Source: Candidatus Nanoarchaeia archaeon (GTDB taxonomy: Archaea; Thermoproteota; Bathyarchaeia; Bathyarchaeales; Bathycorpusculaceae). Taken from it: 44,188 bases of DNA. The first letter of the stretch is position 1. Each line of letters begins with the position of its first letter. The stretch covers positions 1 to 44,188 of the forward strand of contig DATJPJ010000080.1 in the NCBI GenBank assembly GCA_035506455.1, read 5' to 3'. Position numbers and translations under genes: made by a program. The notes under the pieces were generated by a model, which saw nothing but the letters and a program-made list of their open reading frames with translations, was not told the origin of the DNA and ran no database searches. Below, piece by piece: positions 3,547 through 31,450 of the stretch.

Positions 3547-4334
3547 GGGGCGCCACCTAGAATTTTCAGCGCTGCTTCCACGGATGCGCCGTCGTGAACG
3601 ATGGCGGATAGCGCTTTGATCATCACGGTTTGGTTTTCGTGTTGAAACACGTTTCGTCCAATTGATAGACCTGCGCTACCTGCCTTGAGTGCTTCTGTGG
3701 TCATTTCTAGTGTGTCTTTGGCGGTTTTGGCTTTTGGTCCGCCGGCGATGACGATGGGAACGGGGCAGCATTCAACGACGTTTTTGAAGGTGTTGATGTC
3801 GCCTGTGTAGTTGGTTTTGACGATGTCTGCTCCGAGTTCTGCGCCTAGTCGGGCTGCGTGTGCGACCACGTCGGGTGCGTGTTCGTTTGTTATTTTTGGT
3901 CCTCGGGGGTACATCATGGCTAGTAGGGGCATGCCGTATACTTCGCATTCGTCGGCTACTTTTCCTAGCATCGTTAACATTTTGTCTTCGTCTTGGGCGC
4001 CTACGTTGATGTGTACTGAGACTCCGTCTGCTCCTAGTCTGACGGCTTCTTGGATGCTGCAGACTTGGACTTTGTTGTTGGGGTTTGGGCTTAGGTTTGA
4101 GGCGCCTGAAAGCATGACTATTAGCCCTGTGTTTGAGCAGTTAACGTGTTTTGCGATGCCTTTGTGTACGAGGATAGCGTCGGCTTTTCCTTTGATGAGG
4201 TTGTTGATGGTTTGCTGCATGTTTTCGATGCCCATGCATGGTCCGATGGTGACTCCGTGGTCCATGGGTACGATGACTGTTCGGTTGTCTGATTGGAATA
4301 TTCTTGTTAGTCGTCGTTTTTTGCCTTGGTTCAT
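3543..4334 (-). CDS. 2-amino-3,7-dideoxy-D-threo-hept-6-ulosonate (ADH) synthase, AroA' (DhnA-type class I aldolase fold)
   Basis: 263 aa. RTVIVPMDHGVTIGP and VKTNYTG/IAGGPK motifs match the DhnA/MJ0400 aldolase family. It lies directly upstream of AroB'. Confidence 0.8.
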   Translation of the reverse strand: MNQGKKRRLTRIFQSDNRTVIVPMDHGVTIGPCMGIENMQQTINNLIKGKADAILVHKGIAKHVNCSNTGLIVMLSGASNLSPNPNNKVQVCSIQEAVRLGADGVSVHINVGAQDEDKMLTMLGKVADECEVYGMPLLAMMYPRGPKITNEHAPDVVAHAARLGAELGADIVKTNYTGDINTFKNVVECCPVPIVIAGGPKAKTAKDTLEMTTEALKAGSAGLSIGRNVFQHENQTVMIKALSAIVHDGASVEAALKILGGAP

Positions 4335-7877: not shown

Positions 7878-9529
7878 GCTTTTTTCCTTCCGAGCAGTTT
7901 GGAAACGTCTTCTGAGGTGACTATGCCTAGTACTTTCTTTTTTGCGTCTATTACTGGGAGTGCGGATATGTTGTGGGTTGCCATGCGTTTTGCTGCTGTT
8001 TCTAGGGGTTCGTCGGGTTTGGTTGTTATGACGTGTTTTGTCATGATGTCGGTTAGGGATTGTTTGCCCTGTGCCATTGCGCGTGTTACGTCCCATGAGG
8101 TTACGATGCCTGTGAGTGTGCCTGTGTCGTCGATTACGATTATGTGGTTTACTGATTTGGTGACTATGCGTTCGGCTATGGCTCGGACTTCTTCGTTTTC
8201 TTTGCATGTGACTGCTTTGTGCATGACGTTTGCGACGAATGGTGTGTCTTCTGTTTGTTTCATGGGTTTGAAAACGGTGTCTAGGGGTAGTCGTTCTACT
8301 GGGGCTGTTAGGAAGAATTCGCCTTGGTCAATCCACTGTTTTAAGGTGGCGGCGACGTTGCGGGCGTTCTTGAGGCTTGAAAGTGAGCTTACCTTGATTT
8401 TTTTGTCGCCTACTGTTATCGTGCCCGATTTGAGTTGTTTGTAGTTGACTTTGGCGAGTTTTGGGCGGTCTCTTCGTGGAACGCCGTAGTCGACTACGTT
8501 TGTGAATATTTCTTCGTCTCGGATGGCGGTTTTTTTTGCTATGCCTTCGTTTAGGATTGGGATTGGGATGCCTAGTCCGATGTATAGTGTTGTGCCGTAT
8601 CTGGTGAAGGTTGCGCCGCGGAGGAATTTTGTGTCCATTTTTTTGGCGTTGCCTCTGACCATTATTGTTCCGTTTTGGGTTTTTGCTTCGTGTTGGGTGC
8701 CTTCGCCTATGATGTAGCCTTGGGTTCCGCCTAGGAAGATTTTGGTTCCCATTCCGATGGTTTCGTAGTCGGGGTCGTTCATGAGGGGGTTTAGTTCGCC
8801 TGCGCCTGAGTATGTGGCGTTGCGCATTCCTGGGAGGAGTTTGCCCATGTATGTGTAGATTGTTTCGTCGCGGGTGTTGACCGCGCAATTGTATCGTTGG
8901 TAGCAGTTTCGGAAGTTTAACAGGTAAAATTGGTTTAAGTCTTCTTTTGTTAGGGTTGTTCTTAGTTGTGTTCGGGGGTAGCAGTCGGTGCCGTAAGCTG
9001 AAGCTTTTAGTTCAACTTCTTTGCCTGCTACAAGGTCCTCTATGAGGTGTCCTCCGCCGTACTCATAAGGTTGGGTTTCTGACATGGCGGTTGCGCCTAT
9101 GTAAAGGTCGACGGCGGCGCCTGGGTGGCAGATTGGTACGTTGTTCATGAATGCTTGGTCAATTTTCATGGGTGGGTCAGAGTGGCCTACGTTTATGATG
9201 GCGCCTGAGCTGCACATCGCTCCAAAAGTGCCTGTTGTGACCACGTCGACTTCTTTAAAAGCTACTTCGACGCCGCTGCTTTCTACTAGCCGTTTCATTT
9301 CTTCGGCTGTTAAGACTTGGGCGTCGCCTTTGCGGATTTTCTCGTTAATTTCTTCGATGGTTCGGGTTTTTTTCTGAGGGGTTAACGCTTTTTGTCCGAC
9401 CAGTTGCAACTGAAGGACGTTTTCGCGTATTAATAGGTTTTGAACTTTGGTAATGGGATTGGGTGAGTTGAGTGGGGTTTGGACCCCGGTCATTTGTCGC
9501 GACATTAATTTTTTCAATCGTCGCGACAA
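7871..9529 (-). CDS. homocysteine biosynthesis protein, COG1900 domain + tandem CBS (MA1821 family)
   Basis: The conserved N-terminus KTRTIEEINEKIRKGDAQVLTAEEMKRL begins about 45 codons into the ORF. A tandem CBS pair sits at the C-terminus. The 9529 start is a TTG. TTG 9409 and ATG 9493 are alternatives, and repeat copy A (9475-9540) overlaps the extension. The true start is therefore probably near 9409. Confidence 0.85.
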   Translation of the reverse strand: MSRRLKKLMSRQMTGVQTPLNSPNPITKVQNLLIRENVLQLQLVGQKALTPQKKTRTIEEINEKIRKGDAQVLTAEEMKRLVESSGVEVAFKEVDVVTTGTFGAMCSSGAIINVGHSDPPMKIDQAFMNNVPICHPGAAVDLYIGATAMSETQPYEYGGGHLIEDLVAGKEVELKASAYGTDCYPRTQLRTTLTKEDLNQFYLLNFRNCYQRYNCAVNTRDETIYTYMGKLLPGMRNATYSGAGELNPLMNDPDYETIGMGTKIFLGGTQGYIIGEGTQHEAKTQNGTIMVRGNAKKMDTKFLRGATFTRYGTTLYIGLGIPIPILNEGIAKKTAIRDEEIFTNVVDYGVPRRDRPKLAKVNYKQLKSGTITVGDKKIKVSSLSSLKNARNVAATLKQWIDQGEFFLTAPVERLPLDTVFKPMKQTEDTPFVANVMHKAVTCKENEEVRAIAERIVTKSVNHIIVIDDTGTLTGIVTSWDVTRAMAQGKQSLTDIMTKHVITTKPDEPLETAAKRMATHNISALPVIDAKKKVLGIVTSEDVSKLLGRKKAW

Positions 9530-9540
9530 TCGAGAAAAAC
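9475..9540. repeat. direct repeat copy A (about 66 nt) with internal 10-bp dyad TTGTCGCGAC/GTCGCGACAA
   Basis: Aligned by eye to 9968-10030. Shared blocks are GGTYTGGACCC(C)GGTCATTTGTC, ATTTTT, GACAATSG and GAAAAC. Confidence 0.7.
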
Positions 9541-9864
9541 CTTGTTTCTGGGATTAGTGCGGGTTGCTTTTCTTGGAAGCAGTTTATTAGCAATTGTCCT
9601 GCGATTGTCGCATTGTGCTAGATGTCGGCCTGAATTCTGTTGCAAAAGAGTGAAGAGGTTGTGGAAGACTTGTGCGTTTTTGCTCTTAACCAGGAAGCCG
9701 CTGAGCGGGGGTGGCTTTGGGGGAGGGTTGAGGGCGCCGCAGTTACCAGGAGGAGAGGGAGGGGGTAGTATGTTCGCAGCTTGGGTTTTTTTTAATGTTG
9801 AACATTGCGAAATCTTGTTTTTTGGGGTTGAAGCTGTTTGCTTTTTGGTAATGCAGCTTTTTGG

Positions 9865-9934
9865 CAAGTGTTCAAGCAATGTTCAATCCAATGTTCGCGA
9901 TGCAGAAAACCAATGTTCAGCCAATGTTCAACAT
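9865..9934. repeat. five direct (C)CAATGTTC(A) iterons at 11-12 bp phasing
   Basis: Copies start at 9865 (CAAGTGTTCA), 9876, 9888, 9910 and 9921. The last one merges into the palindrome ATGTTCAACAT. A related palindrome AATGTTGAACATT lies at 9794-9806. Confidence 0.7.
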
Positions 9935-9967
9935 GGGTGAGCCAGTCCTGGGTTAACGGGCCGGGAC

Positions 9968-10030
9968 GGGTCTGGACCCGGTCATTTGTCCCGTCAATGG
10001 ATTTTTGCATTGTGGGACAATGGTGAAAAC
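9968..10030. repeat. direct repeat copy B (about 63 nt) with internal dyad TTGTCCC/GGGACAA
   Basis: See copy A. The arms are at 9986-9992 and 10014-10020. Confidence 0.7.
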
Positions 10031-10203
10031 AGGTGTTTGGGGTCTGTAGTGGGTTGGTTTTTGTTAAAGCAGTCTGCCCATGATTGTCCACCATTGACCC
10101 AACTGGTCAATCCGTTCAGGGAGGTTTGACTATTTTTTTTGGGGGATGTGCAGAGTCTTGCTGAAAGAATTAGCTGATAGAAAGAAAGGGAGTTTTGGCT
10201 TGG

Positions 10204-10707
10204 TTAAGCCGTCTTCATGAACTTTGATTTGGGTGAGCCGCAGACGGGGCAGACGTCCGGAGCGGAGCCTTCCACAGTGTTTCCACATGTCTGGCAGACG
10301 TAGTAGTCGACCTTTACAATGTCTTTCTTGTTTTTCATTGCGTCTATAGCTTTCTGGTATAGTCCAGCGTGCACTTTCTCGACTTTGTTTGCGACGTCAA
10401 AGCTCCATGCAGCTTGTTTGTTGCCTTCTTTCTTAGCTACGTCGAGGAATTCAGGGTACATTTTCATAAACTCGAACGATTCGCCGCCAAACGCGGTGTT
10501 CAGGTTTTCCATTGTAGATTTGATTTCGCCTAAGGTTCTTAGATGGTTTAAGGCGTGGACGGTTTCGGCTTCTGCTGCTGCTCGAAAGAGCTTGGCAGCT
10601 TGTGTGAAGCCTTCTTCGTCGGCTTTCATTGCGAAAGCTAAGTATCGTCTGTTTGCTTGAGATTCTCCTGCGAATGCAGCTTTTAGGTTTTCATCGGTCT
10701 TGGTCAT
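10204..10707 (-). CDS. rbr: rubrerythrin
   Basis: 167 aa. It has a ferritin-like diiron domain (ENLKAAFAGESQANRRY, EAETVHA) and a C-terminal rubredoxin-like CQTC...CPVC. AGGAGA lies 9 nt upstream of the ATG. Confidence 0.9.
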   Translation of the reverse strand: MTKTDENLKAAFAGESQANRRYLAFAMKADEEGFTQAAKLFRAAAEAETVHALNHLRTLGEIKSTMENLNTAFGGESFEFMKMYPEFLDVAKKEGNKQAAWSFDVANKVEKVHAGLYQKAIDAMKNKKDIVKVDYYVCQTCGNTVEGSAPDVCPVCGSPKSKFMKTA

Positions 10708-19224: not shown

Positions 19225-19509
19225 ATGAACATTTCTAAAGTCTCAGGCAAAAACTCTAAGCACCAGGTTCTCGTTTACGCGCTTAGCACATGCGTTTGGT
19301 GCAAAATGACTAAGCAGTACTTGAAAGATAACGAAGTCGAATTTGAATTCGTCGATGTTGACCTTAGCACAGAGGCAGACAGAGACAAGATCCGTAAACA
19401 TATTCAAGATTTGGGCGGTGCCCTTAGCTATCCCACTATTATCGTGGACAGCAAAAAGGTCATCACGGGTTTCCGCAAAGACCTTCTCAAGAAGGAGTTG
19501 GAATTGTGA
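19225..19509 (+). CDS. glutaredoxin/NrdH-like small redoxin (CVWC)
   Basis: 94 aa with VLVYALSTCVWCKMTKQYL and YPTIIVD, a thioredoxin-fold pattern. The stop overlaps the next gene's start (GTGA). Confidence 0.8.
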   Translation: MNISKVSGKNSKHQVLVYALSTCVWCKMTKQYLKDNEVEFEFVDVDLSTEADRDKIRKHIQDLGGALSYPTIIVDSKKVITGFRKDLLKKELEL

Positions 19510-20063
19510 CCGGCACGATAGAAGATTTCCGCAAGCGCGCCGAAGCGGATGCTAAAACTAACGGTTGCTACTTGATTCCCGATGCTGACCTTCTTCAGTC
19601 TTTTCTTGATGGGCTCAAAACCAACGAGGAACGCTATGGCTATCCCTCTTGTCCATGCCGCCTTGCCTCTGGCGTCTTCGAATTGGACAGAGACATTATC
19701 TGTCCTTGTGACTACCGTGACCCAGATGTGGCCCAATATGGGGCTTGTTACTGTCGTCTGTATGTTAACAAAGAAGTTTCTGAAGGCAAAAAGGAACTCC
19801 CTATAGTTCCCGAACGCAGACCAATGGACAAGCAAGCAAGAGCTTTCAGTGCCGCGAGTGCACCAAAAGAAGCCAGAACCTCTGCAAAAGCCCCCTTGGA
19901 GGAAGAAAAAGAAGAAATGGTCAAAATAGGACCCAAAATGTGGTACTGCAAACAATGCGGCTACGTCGTCTTCAGGGAAGACCCACCTTACGTGTGTCCA
20001 ATCTGCAAAGCAAAACGAGAATTCTTTGCTGAAATAAAAACAAAAGTGCAGTTTTCCGGTTAG
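19506..20063 (+). CDS. ferredoxin:thioredoxin reductase catalytic-subunit homolog fused to C-terminal rubredoxin (FDR-like)
   Basis: The CPC...CPC...CYC cysteine pattern of FTR-B (SCPCRL, ICPCDY, ACYCRL) is followed by an E/K linker and the rubredoxin knuckles CKQC...CPIC. The GTG start overlaps the upstream stop. Confidence 0.8.
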   Translation: MTGTIEDFRKRAEADAKTNGCYLIPDADLLQSFLDGLKTNEERYGYPSCPCRLASGVFELDRDIICPCDYRDPDVAQYGACYCRLYVNKEVSEGKKELPIVPERRPMDKQARAFSAASAPKEARTSAKAPLEEEKEEMVKIGPKMWYCKQCGYVVFREDPPYVCPICKAKREFFAEIKTKVQFSG

Positions 20064-31219: not shown

Positions 31220-31450
31220 TTAGATTTTTTTCTTAGCTTTCTCTACTGTTTCCTTTGCTTCTTTGCCAACTTTCTTTGCTTCTTCGGCTCCTTTTGCACC
31301 AACTTTCTTGGCGTCGACTGCTACTTTAGATCCAACTTTCTTTGCGTCAACGGCTACTTTAGATCCGACTTTCTTTGCATCAACTGCTGCTTTCTTGGCA
31401 TCTTCTTCGACTTTTTTCTTCAAGTTATTCAGAGGTGTCATTTCATTCAC
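31220..31450 (-). CDS. small Lys/Ala-rich protein built from 11-residue repeats (DAKKVGSKVAV), LEA-3/apolipoprotein-like periodicity
   Basis: 76 aa with 5-6 consecutive 11-mers. Two 33-bp DNA units differ at 3 positions, all synonymous. Confidence 0.7.
   Translation of the reverse strand: MNEMTPLNNLKKKVEEDAKKAAVDAKKVGSKVAVDAKKVGSKVAVDAKKVGAKGAEEAKKVGKEAKETVEKAKKKI
31311..31399. repeat. 33-bp tandem repeat (2.7 units) inside the repeat-protein CDS
   Basis: Units lie at 31311-31343 and 31344-31376, with a partial third to 31399. Confidence 0.8.

What the first reader, a model, noticed from the sequence alone, without database searches (positions are those of the whole stretch)
9794..9935. Helically phased AATGTTC iteron array capped by ATGTT-N-AACAT palindromes
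Five direct copies of (C)CAATGTTC(A) start at 9865, 9876, 9888, 9910 and 9921. The spacings are 11, 12, 22 and 11 bp, close to one or two helical turns. The same word forms palindromes at 9794-9806 (AATGTTGAACATT) and 9924-9934 (ATGTTCAACAT). A T-rich stretch lies between them at 9807-9863.

Same-face arrays of one word next to an easily melted tract are typical of iteron-type origins and of cooperative repressor or nucleoid-protein sites. I know of no described archaeal motif with this sequence.
Basis: seen in the sequence. Interest (0 to 1): 0.65.

Follow-up and report, generated by a model that had tools for sequence, protein, structure and literature searches.

The report
Binding-site array inside archaeal mobile repeat
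The phased AATGTTC repeats are real, but they are not a replication origin: they are the best-conserved part of a 663-bp non-coding mobile element, scattered in many copies through a wetland Bathyarchaeia genome, and most likely serve as a docking platform for a DNA-binding protein.

Summary
CAATGTTC occurs 5 times in 181 bp against 2 elsewhere in 44 kb (Poisson about 3e-13). Word spacing is 11, 12, 22 and 11 bp, and both palindromes are where stated. Two corrections: the first copy is imperfect (CAAGTGTTC), and the T-rich tract is not unusually AT-rich (GC 0.39, 24th percentile).

The array is not a locus-specific feature. It lies inside a 663-bp non-coding element (window 9479-10141) found at 81-86% identity in at least three other gene contexts. 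Metagenome depth over the element is roughly 12-46 times that of the single-copy flanks. Two of three complete copies carry perfect 9-bp target-site duplications, so the element transposes. No terminal inverted repeats, coding frame, partner transposase, Rfam match or base-pair covariation were found.

The element consists of three diverged direct modules (A, M, B). Each has a start word, a T-run, a palindrome of two inverted words, and a phased array of direct words. A and B use TTGTC; M, which holds the finding, uses TGTTC at every site class (7:0 against 0:7). Across about 100 metagenome contig pieces the words are invariant, the spacers vary, and the palindrome centre is G or C about equally.

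Best reading: a multi-site protein-binding platform within a new, TIR-less, MITE-like transposable element. An iteron-type origin is not supported.

The parts
9479..10141 (+). Whole 663-bp non-coding dispersed element. It runs from the left terminus TTGGACCCCGGTCATTTGTC to the right terminus ...GACTATTTTTTTTG.
   Evidence: Full-length homologues exist in L274 (86%), L282 (81%) and L307 (86%), each in a different gene context. Lengths between junctions are 663, 668 and 664 bp. Perfect 9-bp duplications flank the L274 and L282 copies.
9470..9478 (.). Left flanking 9-mer GAGTGGGGT, at the position of the target-site duplication. Only TGGGG recurs at the right junction (10140-10145), so the duplication is degenerate in this copy.
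   Evidence: Junction sequences. L274 has GTGGCAGGT on both sides and L282 has TGGATAGCT on both sides.
9479..9637 (+). Module A. It holds the start word GGTCATTTGTC (9488-9498), the hairpin or palindrome arms TTGTCGCGAC (9494-9503) and GTCGCGACAA (9520-9529) around a T-run, and the direct words ATTGTC at 9593 and 9604 and ATTGTG at 9612.
   Evidence: (I8, D1). There are 4 TTGTC/GACAA words and no TGTTC word. In the footprint the words are invariant and the spacers vary.
9638..9754 (+). G-rich variable spacer between modules A and M. It is poorly conserved, and copies lacking about 74-103 nt of it exist.
   Evidence: Depth here is only 1-11 against 150-440 for the modules. Skip joints 9680>9755 and 9680>9762 are seen, and 2692>2796 in L274. 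There is no excess RNA structure: z = +0.65 and +1.3.
9755..9935 (+). Module M, the diverged middle module that contains the finding. It holds the start word GGTAGTATGTTC (ATGTTC at 9770-9775), a T8 run (9785-9792), the palindrome, a T-rich spacer and the word array.
   Evidence: The module-A HMM hits this segment at E = 9e-8 in the window and 8e-11 in L282. There are 7 TGTTC/GAACA words and no TTGTC word.
9794..9806 (.). Palindrome AATGTT-G-AACATT. It is homologous to the palindrome ATTGT-GGG-ACAAT of module B (10009-10021).
   Evidence: The arms are invariant in about 100 contig pieces, and the centre base 9800 is G or C at about 50:50. L282 has C there.
9807..9864 (+). T-rich spacer of module M, with oligo-T runs of T6, T5 and T5. 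It is the least constrained part of the module.
   Evidence: 12 of 58 positions are variable in the population footprint. GC is 0.39, the 24th percentile.
9865..9934 (+). The array: five direct words (CAAGTGTTC, then CAATGTTC four times) at 11, 12, 22 and 11 bp. The last word runs into the palindrome ATGTTCAACAT (9924-9934).
   Evidence: In 9865-9921 only 9885, 9887 and 9890 vary (at or just before the start of the third word); 9922 and 9927, in the last word, vary in a minority where depth is low. 9893-9934 is identical in all four copies. A variant with one extra word exists (loose end at 9896).
9972..10113 (+). Module B. It holds the start word GGTCATTTGTC (9980-9990), the hairpin TTGTCCC (9986-9992) with GGGACAA (10014-10020), the palindrome ATTGTGGGACAAT (10009-10021), the words ATTGTC (10083) and ATTGAC (10093), and the palindrome TTGACC/GGTCAA (10094-10110).
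   Evidence: (D1, D3, I4, I6). The footprint has variable sites clustered at 10025-10066, while words and palindrome are invariant.
10114..10141 (+). Right terminal segment. It resembles the first part of a fourth module (GGTTTGAC...T-run) and ends in TTTTTTTTG.
   Evidence: The right ends compare as GACTGTTTTTG in L274 and ...GCTTTTTTTTG in another copy. This part is variable among copies, with depth 0 at 80% or more beyond 10108.
9428..9436 (-). TATA box (CTATTAATA on the - strand) of the downstream homocysteine-synthesis (HcyBio-CBS) gene. It lies about 40 bp outside the element and is not part of it.
   Evidence: The same promoter and leader block is conserved upstream of the gene in 11 related Bathyarchaeia genomes that lack the element.

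Best explanation
The array is the enlarged 'word array' of the middle module of a 663-bp, non-coding, multi-copy transposable element of a wetland Bathyarchaeia lineage.

Shown:
- The element is dispersed in unrelated gene contexts and is flanked by 9-bp target duplications.
- It is built of three diverged direct modules. Each carries one short word at three site classes: a start word, an inverted pair forming a palindrome, and 2-5 direct copies about 11 bp apart.
- Modules A and B use TTGTC. Module M uses TGTTC at all of its sites.
- Words are invariant across the family, while spacers and the palindrome centre vary.

Inferred:
- The words are recognition sites for a sequence-specific DNA-binding protein supplied in trans.
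- A dimer would seat on the palindromes at 9794-9806 and 9924-9934. Further subunits would add cooperatively along the roughly helically phased direct words, forming a nucleoprotein filament or wrap.
- Only copies that keep these sites seem to have propagated. The protein is therefore most likely the transposase, or an accessory protein, of the unseen autonomous partner. The array would then act like the multi-site ends or the internal enhancer of complex transposons.
- The two word types suggest two paralogous binding specificities, or two roles.
For: - Clustering is far beyond chance.
- Full-length copies at 81-86% identity lie in three other contexts: between a 115-aa ORF and a RadB-like gene, next to an ABC ATPase, and on a third contig.
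- In run X1 the element modules reach depth 150-440 at 85% or more, and 90-117 at 97% or more. The single-copy flanks are at 7.6-9.7.
- Perfect duplications GTGGCAGGT (L274) and TGGATAGCT (L282) sit exactly at the junctions. The chance of this is about 1e-3 per copy. Element lengths are 663, 668 and 664 bp.
- The module-A HMM hits B at 1e-14 to 1e-17 and the array segment M at 9e-8 to 8e-11. The alignment shows homologous start word, palindrome and array in all three modules.
- Word usage is 7:0 in A+B against 0:7 in M, Fisher p = 6e-4.
- Population footprints show invariant words and palindrome arms, variable spacers, and a palindrome centre that is G or C at about 50:50.
- No frame is conserved between copies. 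There is no Pfam hit for the ORFs over the element.
Against: - No protein has been tied to the words, and no transposase gene is present in the 44-kb window or on the 14 kb read (L308) of the 19-kb contig that carries the L274 copy.
- Terminal inverted repeats are not detectable, so the transposition chemistry is unknown.
- The window's own copy has only a 5-bp remnant of the duplication.
- Depth from Logan contigs cannot separate copies within one genome from copies in co-occurring relatives.
- Only four full or near-full copies could be read.
- Uneven conservation could partly reflect uneven mutation rates, because homopolymer-rich spacers mutate faster.
Confidence: 0.55

Rival explanations
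1. Dispersed cis-regulatory cassette. The element has been co-opted, or spreads, as a carrier of transcription-factor sites. The array and palindromes would be operator or activator sites that put neighbouring genes under a common regulator.
For: In all three copies whose left flank is known, a gene starts 35-190 bp beyond module A and reads away from it. In two of three copies a gene also reads away from the B side. The conservation pattern of invariant words and a free palindrome centre is that of factor binding sites. The window copy lies among oxidative-stress genes.
Against: The neighbouring genes share no common function: homocysteine synthesis, an ABC ATPase, RadB, and an unknown 115-aa protein. 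The array lies 430-500 bp from the conserved HcyBio promoter, which is intact without the element in relatives. Intergenic placement is expected for any tolerated insertion.
Confidence: 0.15
2. Promoter region of a small non-coding RNA carried by the element. On the - strand, the palindrome overlaps a TATA-like TTAAAAAAAA, a GAACAT word lies at the predicted start near 9772, and the array would be an upstream activating region.
For: The sequence layout is visible. The putative TATA and palindrome are invariant in the family. The - strand is A/C-rich, like the sense strands of the neighbouring genes.
Against: The region that would be transcribed (9640-9770) is the least conserved part and is deleted in some copies. 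It shows no excess folding, and only 1 of 46 (- strand) and 2 of 76 (+ strand) predicted pairs show a change on both sides. No Rfam family matches. No RNA run could be found. Modules A and B have the same layout without a TATA-like box.
Confidence: 0.1
3. No function: the repeats are slippage-type tandem duplications of an 11-12-bp unit inside a young selfish element, and look conserved only because the copies are recent.
For: Tandem Repeats Finder calls periods of 12 (2.8 copies) and 11 (1.9 copies). A family member with one extra unit exists.
Against: The same word also forms the palindrome 70 bp away and the module start word. The homologous sites of A and B carry a different word at every position. 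Variation is strongly non-uniform, with 12 variable sites in the 58-bp spacer against 3 in the first 57 bp of the array, 9865-9921.
Confidence: 0.12
4. Iteron-type replication origin, or a relic of a plasmid or virus origin. Initiator molecules would bind the phased words and melt the adjacent T-rich tract.
For: Phased direct repeats lie next to a T-rich tract and are bounded by palindromes.
Against: The element is multi-copy and transposed. No orc1/cdc6 or rep gene occurs in 44 kb. There is no GC-skew switch. The tract's GC of 0.39 is unremarkable and it is the least conserved part. No similarity was found to any plasmid, phage or IMG/VR contig.
Confidence: 0.03

Closest known systems
MITEs and other non-autonomous DNA transposons of prokaryotes, for example Sulfolobus SM1-SM4 and Neisseria Correia elements (from my own knowledge)
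   Same: Short (under 1 kb), non-coding, many copies, placed in intergenic DNA of unrelated loci, flanked by a fixed-length target-site duplication, and dependent on a transposase supplied in trans.
   Different: No terminal inverted repeats could be detected. The element is built of three direct, diverged about 140-180-bp modules plus a partial fourth. No parent insertion sequence is known. The best-conserved part is an internal phased word array, not the termini.
Multi-site transposon ends and internal enhancers: Mu attL/attR with the IAS enhancer, Tn7 TnsB sites, and the multiple terminal repeats of IS21 (from my own knowledge)
   Same: Several copies of one short recognition word, in direct and inverted orientation and at roughly helical spacing, assemble a multimeric nucleoprotein complex. 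An internal site cluster can be needed in cis.
   Different: No transposase has been identified here. The sites are organised in direct modules rather than in two inverted ends. Two word types (TTGTC and TGTTC) are used in different modules.
Iteron-type plasmid origins and archaeal oriC with ORB elements (from my own knowledge)
   Same: Phased direct repeats of one word next to a T-rich tract, with palindromic versions of the word nearby.
   Different: The element is multi-copy and mobile. It has no initiator gene nearby. Words are 8-9 bp rather than about 17-22-bp iterons. The tract is not AT-rich and is poorly conserved. There is no skew switch.
Partition centromeres made of phased iterons: R1 parC bound by ParR, and tubC bound by TubR (from my own knowledge)
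   Same: Five or more direct repeats at 11-12 bp, a layout those proteins coat cooperatively (my own knowledge; binding to this array is untested).
   Different: No par, seg or tub genes are adjacent. There are tens of dispersed copies in a chromosome rather than one site per replicon.
Modular dispersed intergenic repeats of bacteria, such as the pneumococcal BOX elements boxA-boxB(n)-boxC (from my own knowledge)
   Same: Modular build, a variable number of internal sub-repeats, and intergenic dispersal in many copies.
   Different: Archaeal host, unrelated sequence, clear 9-bp target duplications, and much longer modules with internal palindromes and word arrays.

Membership tests
Iteron-type replication origin (plasmid theta type) | Direct repeats of one word at about helical spacing | tested here: met
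   Five words at 11, 12, 22 and 11 bp.
Iteron-type replication origin (plasmid theta type) | Cognate initiator (Rep) gene adjacent or nearby | tested here: not met
   The flanks are rubrerythrin and HcyBio-CBS. No Rep-like domain appears in any ORF of 110 aa or more that was scanned.
Iteron-type replication origin (plasmid theta type) | Markedly AT-rich unwinding element beside the iterons | tested here: not met
   9807-9863 has GC 0.39 against 0.448 for the window, the 24th percentile. It is the least conserved part of the module.
Iteron-type replication origin (plasmid theta type) | One (or very few) per replicon, at a fixed locus | tested here: not met
   At least four gene contexts, and depth 12-46 times that of the flanks.
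Archaeal chromosomal origin (oriC) | Adjacent orc1/cdc6 gene | tested here: not met
   No Orc1/Cdc6 domain in the window.
Archaeal chromosomal origin (oriC) | Strand-composition (GC skew) switch at the site | tested here: not met
   GC skew is positive on both sides of 9.8 kb.
Archaeal chromosomal origin (oriC) | ORB or mini-ORB boxes in inverted orientation around the unwinding element | not tested
   No ORB consensus was searched. The words present (TGTTC, TTGTC) are not ones I recognise as ORB (my own knowledge).
MITE / non-autonomous DNA transposon | Short and non-coding | tested here: met
   663 bp. ORFs differ in frame between copies and have no Pfam hit.
MITE / non-autonomous DNA transposon | Many copies in unrelated genomic contexts | tested here: met
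MITE / non-autonomous DNA transposon | Target-site duplication of fixed length | tested here: met
   Perfect 9-bp duplications in L274 and L282. The window copy has only a 5-bp remnant.
MITE / non-autonomous DNA transposon | Terminal inverted repeats | tested here: not met
   Local alignment of the first 70 nt against the reverse complement of the last 70 nt gives p = 0.04, 0.33 and 0.76 against shuffles. For this reason I call it MITE-like, not a MITE.
MITE / non-autonomous DNA transposon | Autonomous partner element with the same ends | not testable with these tools
No partner was found in the window, the 14 kb (L308) read of the contig that carries the L274 copy, or IMG/VR.
Structured non-coding RNA gene | Match to a described RNA family | tested here: not met
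   Nothing reaches gathering score. The best sub-threshold hits are 13-16 bits with E above 2.
Structured non-coding RNA gene | Base-pair covariation between copies | tested here: inconclusive
   0-2 compensatory pairs in four alignments of only four sequences. A change at the palindrome centre breaks the predicted long-range helix.
Structured non-coding RNA gene | Transcription of the region | not testable with these tools
   No RNA run holds the stretch.
Iteron-type partition centromere (parC / tubC-like) | Adjacent partition operon (ParA/ParM/TubZ with an adaptor) | tested here: not met
   No such domains in the window or in the flanks of the other copies.

The most novel reading that the evidence does not exclude
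The element may be more than a selfish repeat. It could be a TIR-less transposon of a new mechanistic type, with direct modular ends and a 9-bp stagger, that distributes helically phased arrays for two related DNA-binding specificities (TTGTC and TGTTC) around an archaeal chromosome. In that reading the arrays serve the host as dispersed regulatory or chromosome-organising sites.
Probability: 0.15. Interest if true: 0.7.

Novelty: new variant of a known kind. Interest (0 to 1): 0.42.

Why it matters
Bathyarchaeia are abundant and uncultured, and I found no paper describing repeat elements in them.

This element family shows that their intergenic DNA contains mobile, modular, protein-binding cassettes. 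It also explains why assemblies break here: contig L001 ends inside the element.

The concerted switch of one recognition word at all site classes of one module is a clean natural experiment in the co-evolution of a DNA-binding protein and its sites. It gives a direct handle (bait DNA) for fishing the unknown protein.

For genome annotation it is a caution. A textbook 'iteron plus T-rich tract plus palindrome' picture can be a transposon interior rather than an origin.

Tried and rejected
- Orthologous-spacer test. 80 Bathyarchaeia loci with the HcyBio gene show no array and no nucleotide similarity. None keeps the rubrerythrin neighbour, so the comparison says only that the element is lineage-specific.
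- The two-word pattern scan of IMG/VR gave only chance hits. More specific patterns from the array, from module A and from the left end gave none.
- The metagenome scan returned 107 loci. Only L274 and L282 are related; the rest are unrelated, many of them with the word in tandem arrays.
- Fishing for copies through translations of spurious ORFs yielded L307 and one NCBI fragment. The third query gave nothing.
- Plasmid and phage collections gave no match.
- Rfam gave no family. The weak sR46 C/D-box and twister-P5 hits (13-15 bits, E above 2) were rejected.
- The RNA-structure reading found no covariation and no excess folding of the G-rich part. The whole-element z of -5.2 (+ strand) and -2.3 (- strand) is, in my reading, due to its inverted repeats.
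- No RNA-seq run is available.
- I first read copies A and B as a duplicated promoter or leader of the HcyBio gene. I rejected this because the conserved HcyBio promoter lies outside the element.
- A coding reading of the 100-, 121- and 132-aa ORFs was rejected. Frames are not conserved between copies and there are no domain hits.
- Terminal inverted repeats are not significant.
- The 115-aa neighbour gene in L274 is not associated with the other copies.
- L001 differs from the window only in 9680-9765, at its contig end. I read this as an assembly cross-over between element copies, not as hypervariation.

Full report
**Setting.**
The window is a chromosomal stretch of a Bathyarchaeia archaeon. 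The gene downstream of the finding is a homocysteine-biosynthesis enzyme with CBS domains. Its best relatives, at 75-86% amino-acid identity, are nearly all in Bathyarchaeia/Bathyarchaeota MAGs.

The finding lies in the 0.8-kb spacer between rubrerythrin (10204-10707, - strand) and that gene (7871 to about 9409, - strand). The rest of the window encodes shikimate-pathway, redox and transport proteins. It has no Orc1/Cdc6, Rep or transposase gene.

**The observation.**
Exact CAATGTTC occurs four times on the + strand (9877, 9889, 9911, 9922) and once on the - strand (9800-9807). Only two other copies occur in 44 kb.

Given the rate elsewhere in the window, five copies in 181 bp has a Poisson probability of 3e-13. 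Spacings are 11, 12, 22 and 11 bp.

The two palindromes exist and form a perfect 13-nt inverted pair. The copy at 9865 is imperfect (CAAGTGTTC), and a further ATGTTC lies at 9770.

The 'easily melted' tract is T-rich on one strand, but its GC of 0.39 is only the 24th percentile for the window.

**The array is part of a repeated element.**
Logan contigs of four wetland metagenomes were laid on 9300-10400. The coding flank had depth about 10-23. In contrast, 9485-9560 reached 300-440, the array segment 170-275 and 9966-10113 150-400.
- Many different sequences continued beyond about 9478 and about 10105.
- A metagenome scan with two adjacent words returned two true relatives, L274 and L282.
- A spurious ORF translation led to a third, L307.

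All three relatives carry the whole stretch 9479 to about 10110 at 81-86% identity, but with different neighbours:
- L274 lies between a 115-aa ORF and a RadB-like gene.
- L282 lies next to an ABC ATPase.
- L307 lies on a short contig whose neighbours could not be identified.

The rest of the L274 contig encodes TFB, TBP, Pelota and PAC2 proteins, so it is an archaeal chromosome. In run X1 the flanks of L274 are at depth 7.6 and those of the window at 9.7. Even at 97% identity or more, the element reaches 90-117.

The family therefore has on the order of tens of copies per genome-equivalent. Contig depth cannot separate copies within one genome from copies in co-occurring relatives.

**It transposes.**
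- In L274 the 9-mer GTGGCAGGT immediately precedes the left terminus (TTGGACCCC...) and immediately follows the right terminus (...GACTGTTTTTG).
- In L282 the 9-mer TGGATAGCT does the same.
- The chance of such a match is about 1e-3 per copy.
- Measured between these junctions the copies are 663, 668 and 664 bp.
- The window copy keeps only TGGGG on both sides.

I found no significant terminal inverted repeats. No frame is conserved between copies. Nothing similar turned up in plasmids, phages or IMG/VR.

**Internal anatomy.**
The two direct repeats first seen at 9475-9620 and 9968-10110 are modules A and B.

A profile of module A also hits the T-rich-plus-array segment: E = 9e-8 in the window and 8e-11 in L282. 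The alignment shows three homologous modules:
- A: 9479-9637
- M: 9755-9935
- B: 9972-10113
- a partial fourth start that ends the element in a T-run plus G

Each module has the same order of parts:
- a start word (GGTCATTTGTC in A and B, GGTAGTATGTTC in M)
- a T-run
- a palindrome made of two inverted words (ATTGT-GGG-ACAAT in B, AATGTT-G-AACATT in M)
- a spacer
- direct words about 11 bp apart (ATTGTC, ATTGTC, ATTGTG in A; ATTGTC, ATTGAC in B; five words in M)

A and B together have seven TTGTC/GACAA words and no TGTTC. M has seven TGTTC/GAACA words and no TTGTC. Fisher p is 6e-4, and background is about 2-3 of either word per kb.

So the word changed in concert at the start site, the palindrome and the array of one module.

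**Constraint.**
Differences among about 70-110 contig pieces per module give a population footprint.
- In M, 12 of 58 spacer positions vary. Within 9865-9921 only 9885, 9887 and 9890 vary; these lie at or just before the start of the third word. Positions 9922 and 9927, in the last word, vary in a minority where depth is low.
- The palindrome arms never vary, while the centre base 9800 is G or C at about 50:50.
- A copy with one extra word exists.
- In A and B the variable sites again fall between the words and in the spacers.
- The G-rich stretch 9638-9754 is barely conserved and is partly deleted in some copies.

**Interpretation.**
The pattern has four parts:
- one short word reused in inverted and in phased direct arrangement
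- invariant words with free spacers
- a free palindrome centre
- a concerted word switch in one module

This is what recognition sites of a sequence-specific, probably dimeric, DNA-binding protein look like.

The sites are the conserved core of a non-autonomous mobile element. The most economical reading is that they are needed in cis by the protein that mobilises it. That would make them comparable to the multiple binding sites in Mu, Tn7 or IS21 ends, or to the Mu internal enhancer (my own knowledge).

Protein binding itself, the identity of the protein and the link to transposition are inferences.

**Rival readings.**
- *Co-opted regulatory cassette.* In all three copies with a known left flank, genes start 35-190 bp beyond module A. 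Against this, the neighbours share no function, and the conserved HcyBio promoter lies outside the element.
- *Promoter of a small RNA.* A TATA-like run overlaps the palindrome on the - strand. Against this, the would-be transcript is the least conserved part and has no structure signal. No RNA data exist.
- *Functionless slippage repeats.* Tandem Repeats Finder reports periods of 11-12. This does not explain the palindrome, the start word or the uneven conservation.
- *Replication origin.* This now has almost nothing in its favour.

**Comparison and novelty.**
The element works like a MITE in being short, non-coding, multi-copy and flanked by a target duplication. It fails the terminal-inverted-repeat criterion, so I call it MITE-like.

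Its three-module direct architecture, and its internal phased arrays with two word types, are unusual. I found no paper on repeat elements in Bathyarchaeia.

I rate it a new variant of a known kind, of moderate interest.

Noticed in passing
window 9405-9445 (- strand); L005-L017 at about 3900-4000: The promoter and leader of the HcyBio-CBS gene (AAAAGCTATTAATA..., then GGTTGG..GGAGGAAAAAGCGCTCAACCC) is conserved across 11 Bathyarchaeia genomes whose upstream genes all differ. The annotated long ORF start (TTG at 9529) is therefore probably wrong. The real start is near TTG 9409.
   Followed up: partly
L005, L007, L008 and L012, about 100-130 nt upstream of the HcyBio promoter: A shared motif TTTAAATA(A)GGGGG(C/G)TATAGA, which reads as a TATA box followed by a conserved start. 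It recurs in several relatives and may mark a small RNA gene or another promoter.
   Followed up: no
L001 6918-7029 against window 9680-9790: A contig from another assembly is identical to the window from the arylsulfotransferase-like gene, SOD and rubrerythrin through the array. It then differs at about 20 positions in its last 90 nt (the G-rich segment) and ends. This is probably an assembly cross-over between element copies, and it shows the repeat breaks assemblies.
   Followed up: partly
window 31220-31450 (- strand); tandem repeat 31266-31414: A 76-aa lysine-rich ORF made of 11-residue repeats (AVDAKKVGSKV...), encoded by a 33-nt tandem repeat of 3.9 copies. It is LEA-like or stress-protein-like and sits in a low-GC (0.36) stretch with no other long ORF between 30.8 and 32.9 kb.
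   Followed up: no
window 19506-20063 (+): A fusion of the ferredoxin-thioredoxin reductase catalytic chain with a rubredoxin-like domain. It lies in a neighbourhood rich in oxidative-stress genes: rubrerythrin, Fe/Mn SOD, peroxiredoxin and a pyridine-nucleotide disulphide oxidoreductase.
   Followed up: no
P0003 (NCBI HTY74681.1): A spurious ORF from an L274-type copy of the element is deposited as a hypothetical protein of a 'Candidatus Nanoarchaeia' MAG. Either that bin is mislabelled or contaminated, or the element occurs outside Bathyarchaeia.
   Followed up: no
L282 about 120-205 (right end of that copy): The last 86 nt of the L282 copy are unrelated in sequence to the other copies. They keep the overall length and a palindrome at the equivalent place (CCAAGTCT...AGACTTCTTGG in place of TTGACC...GGTCAA). 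This hints that a hairpin near the right end matters.
   Followed up: no
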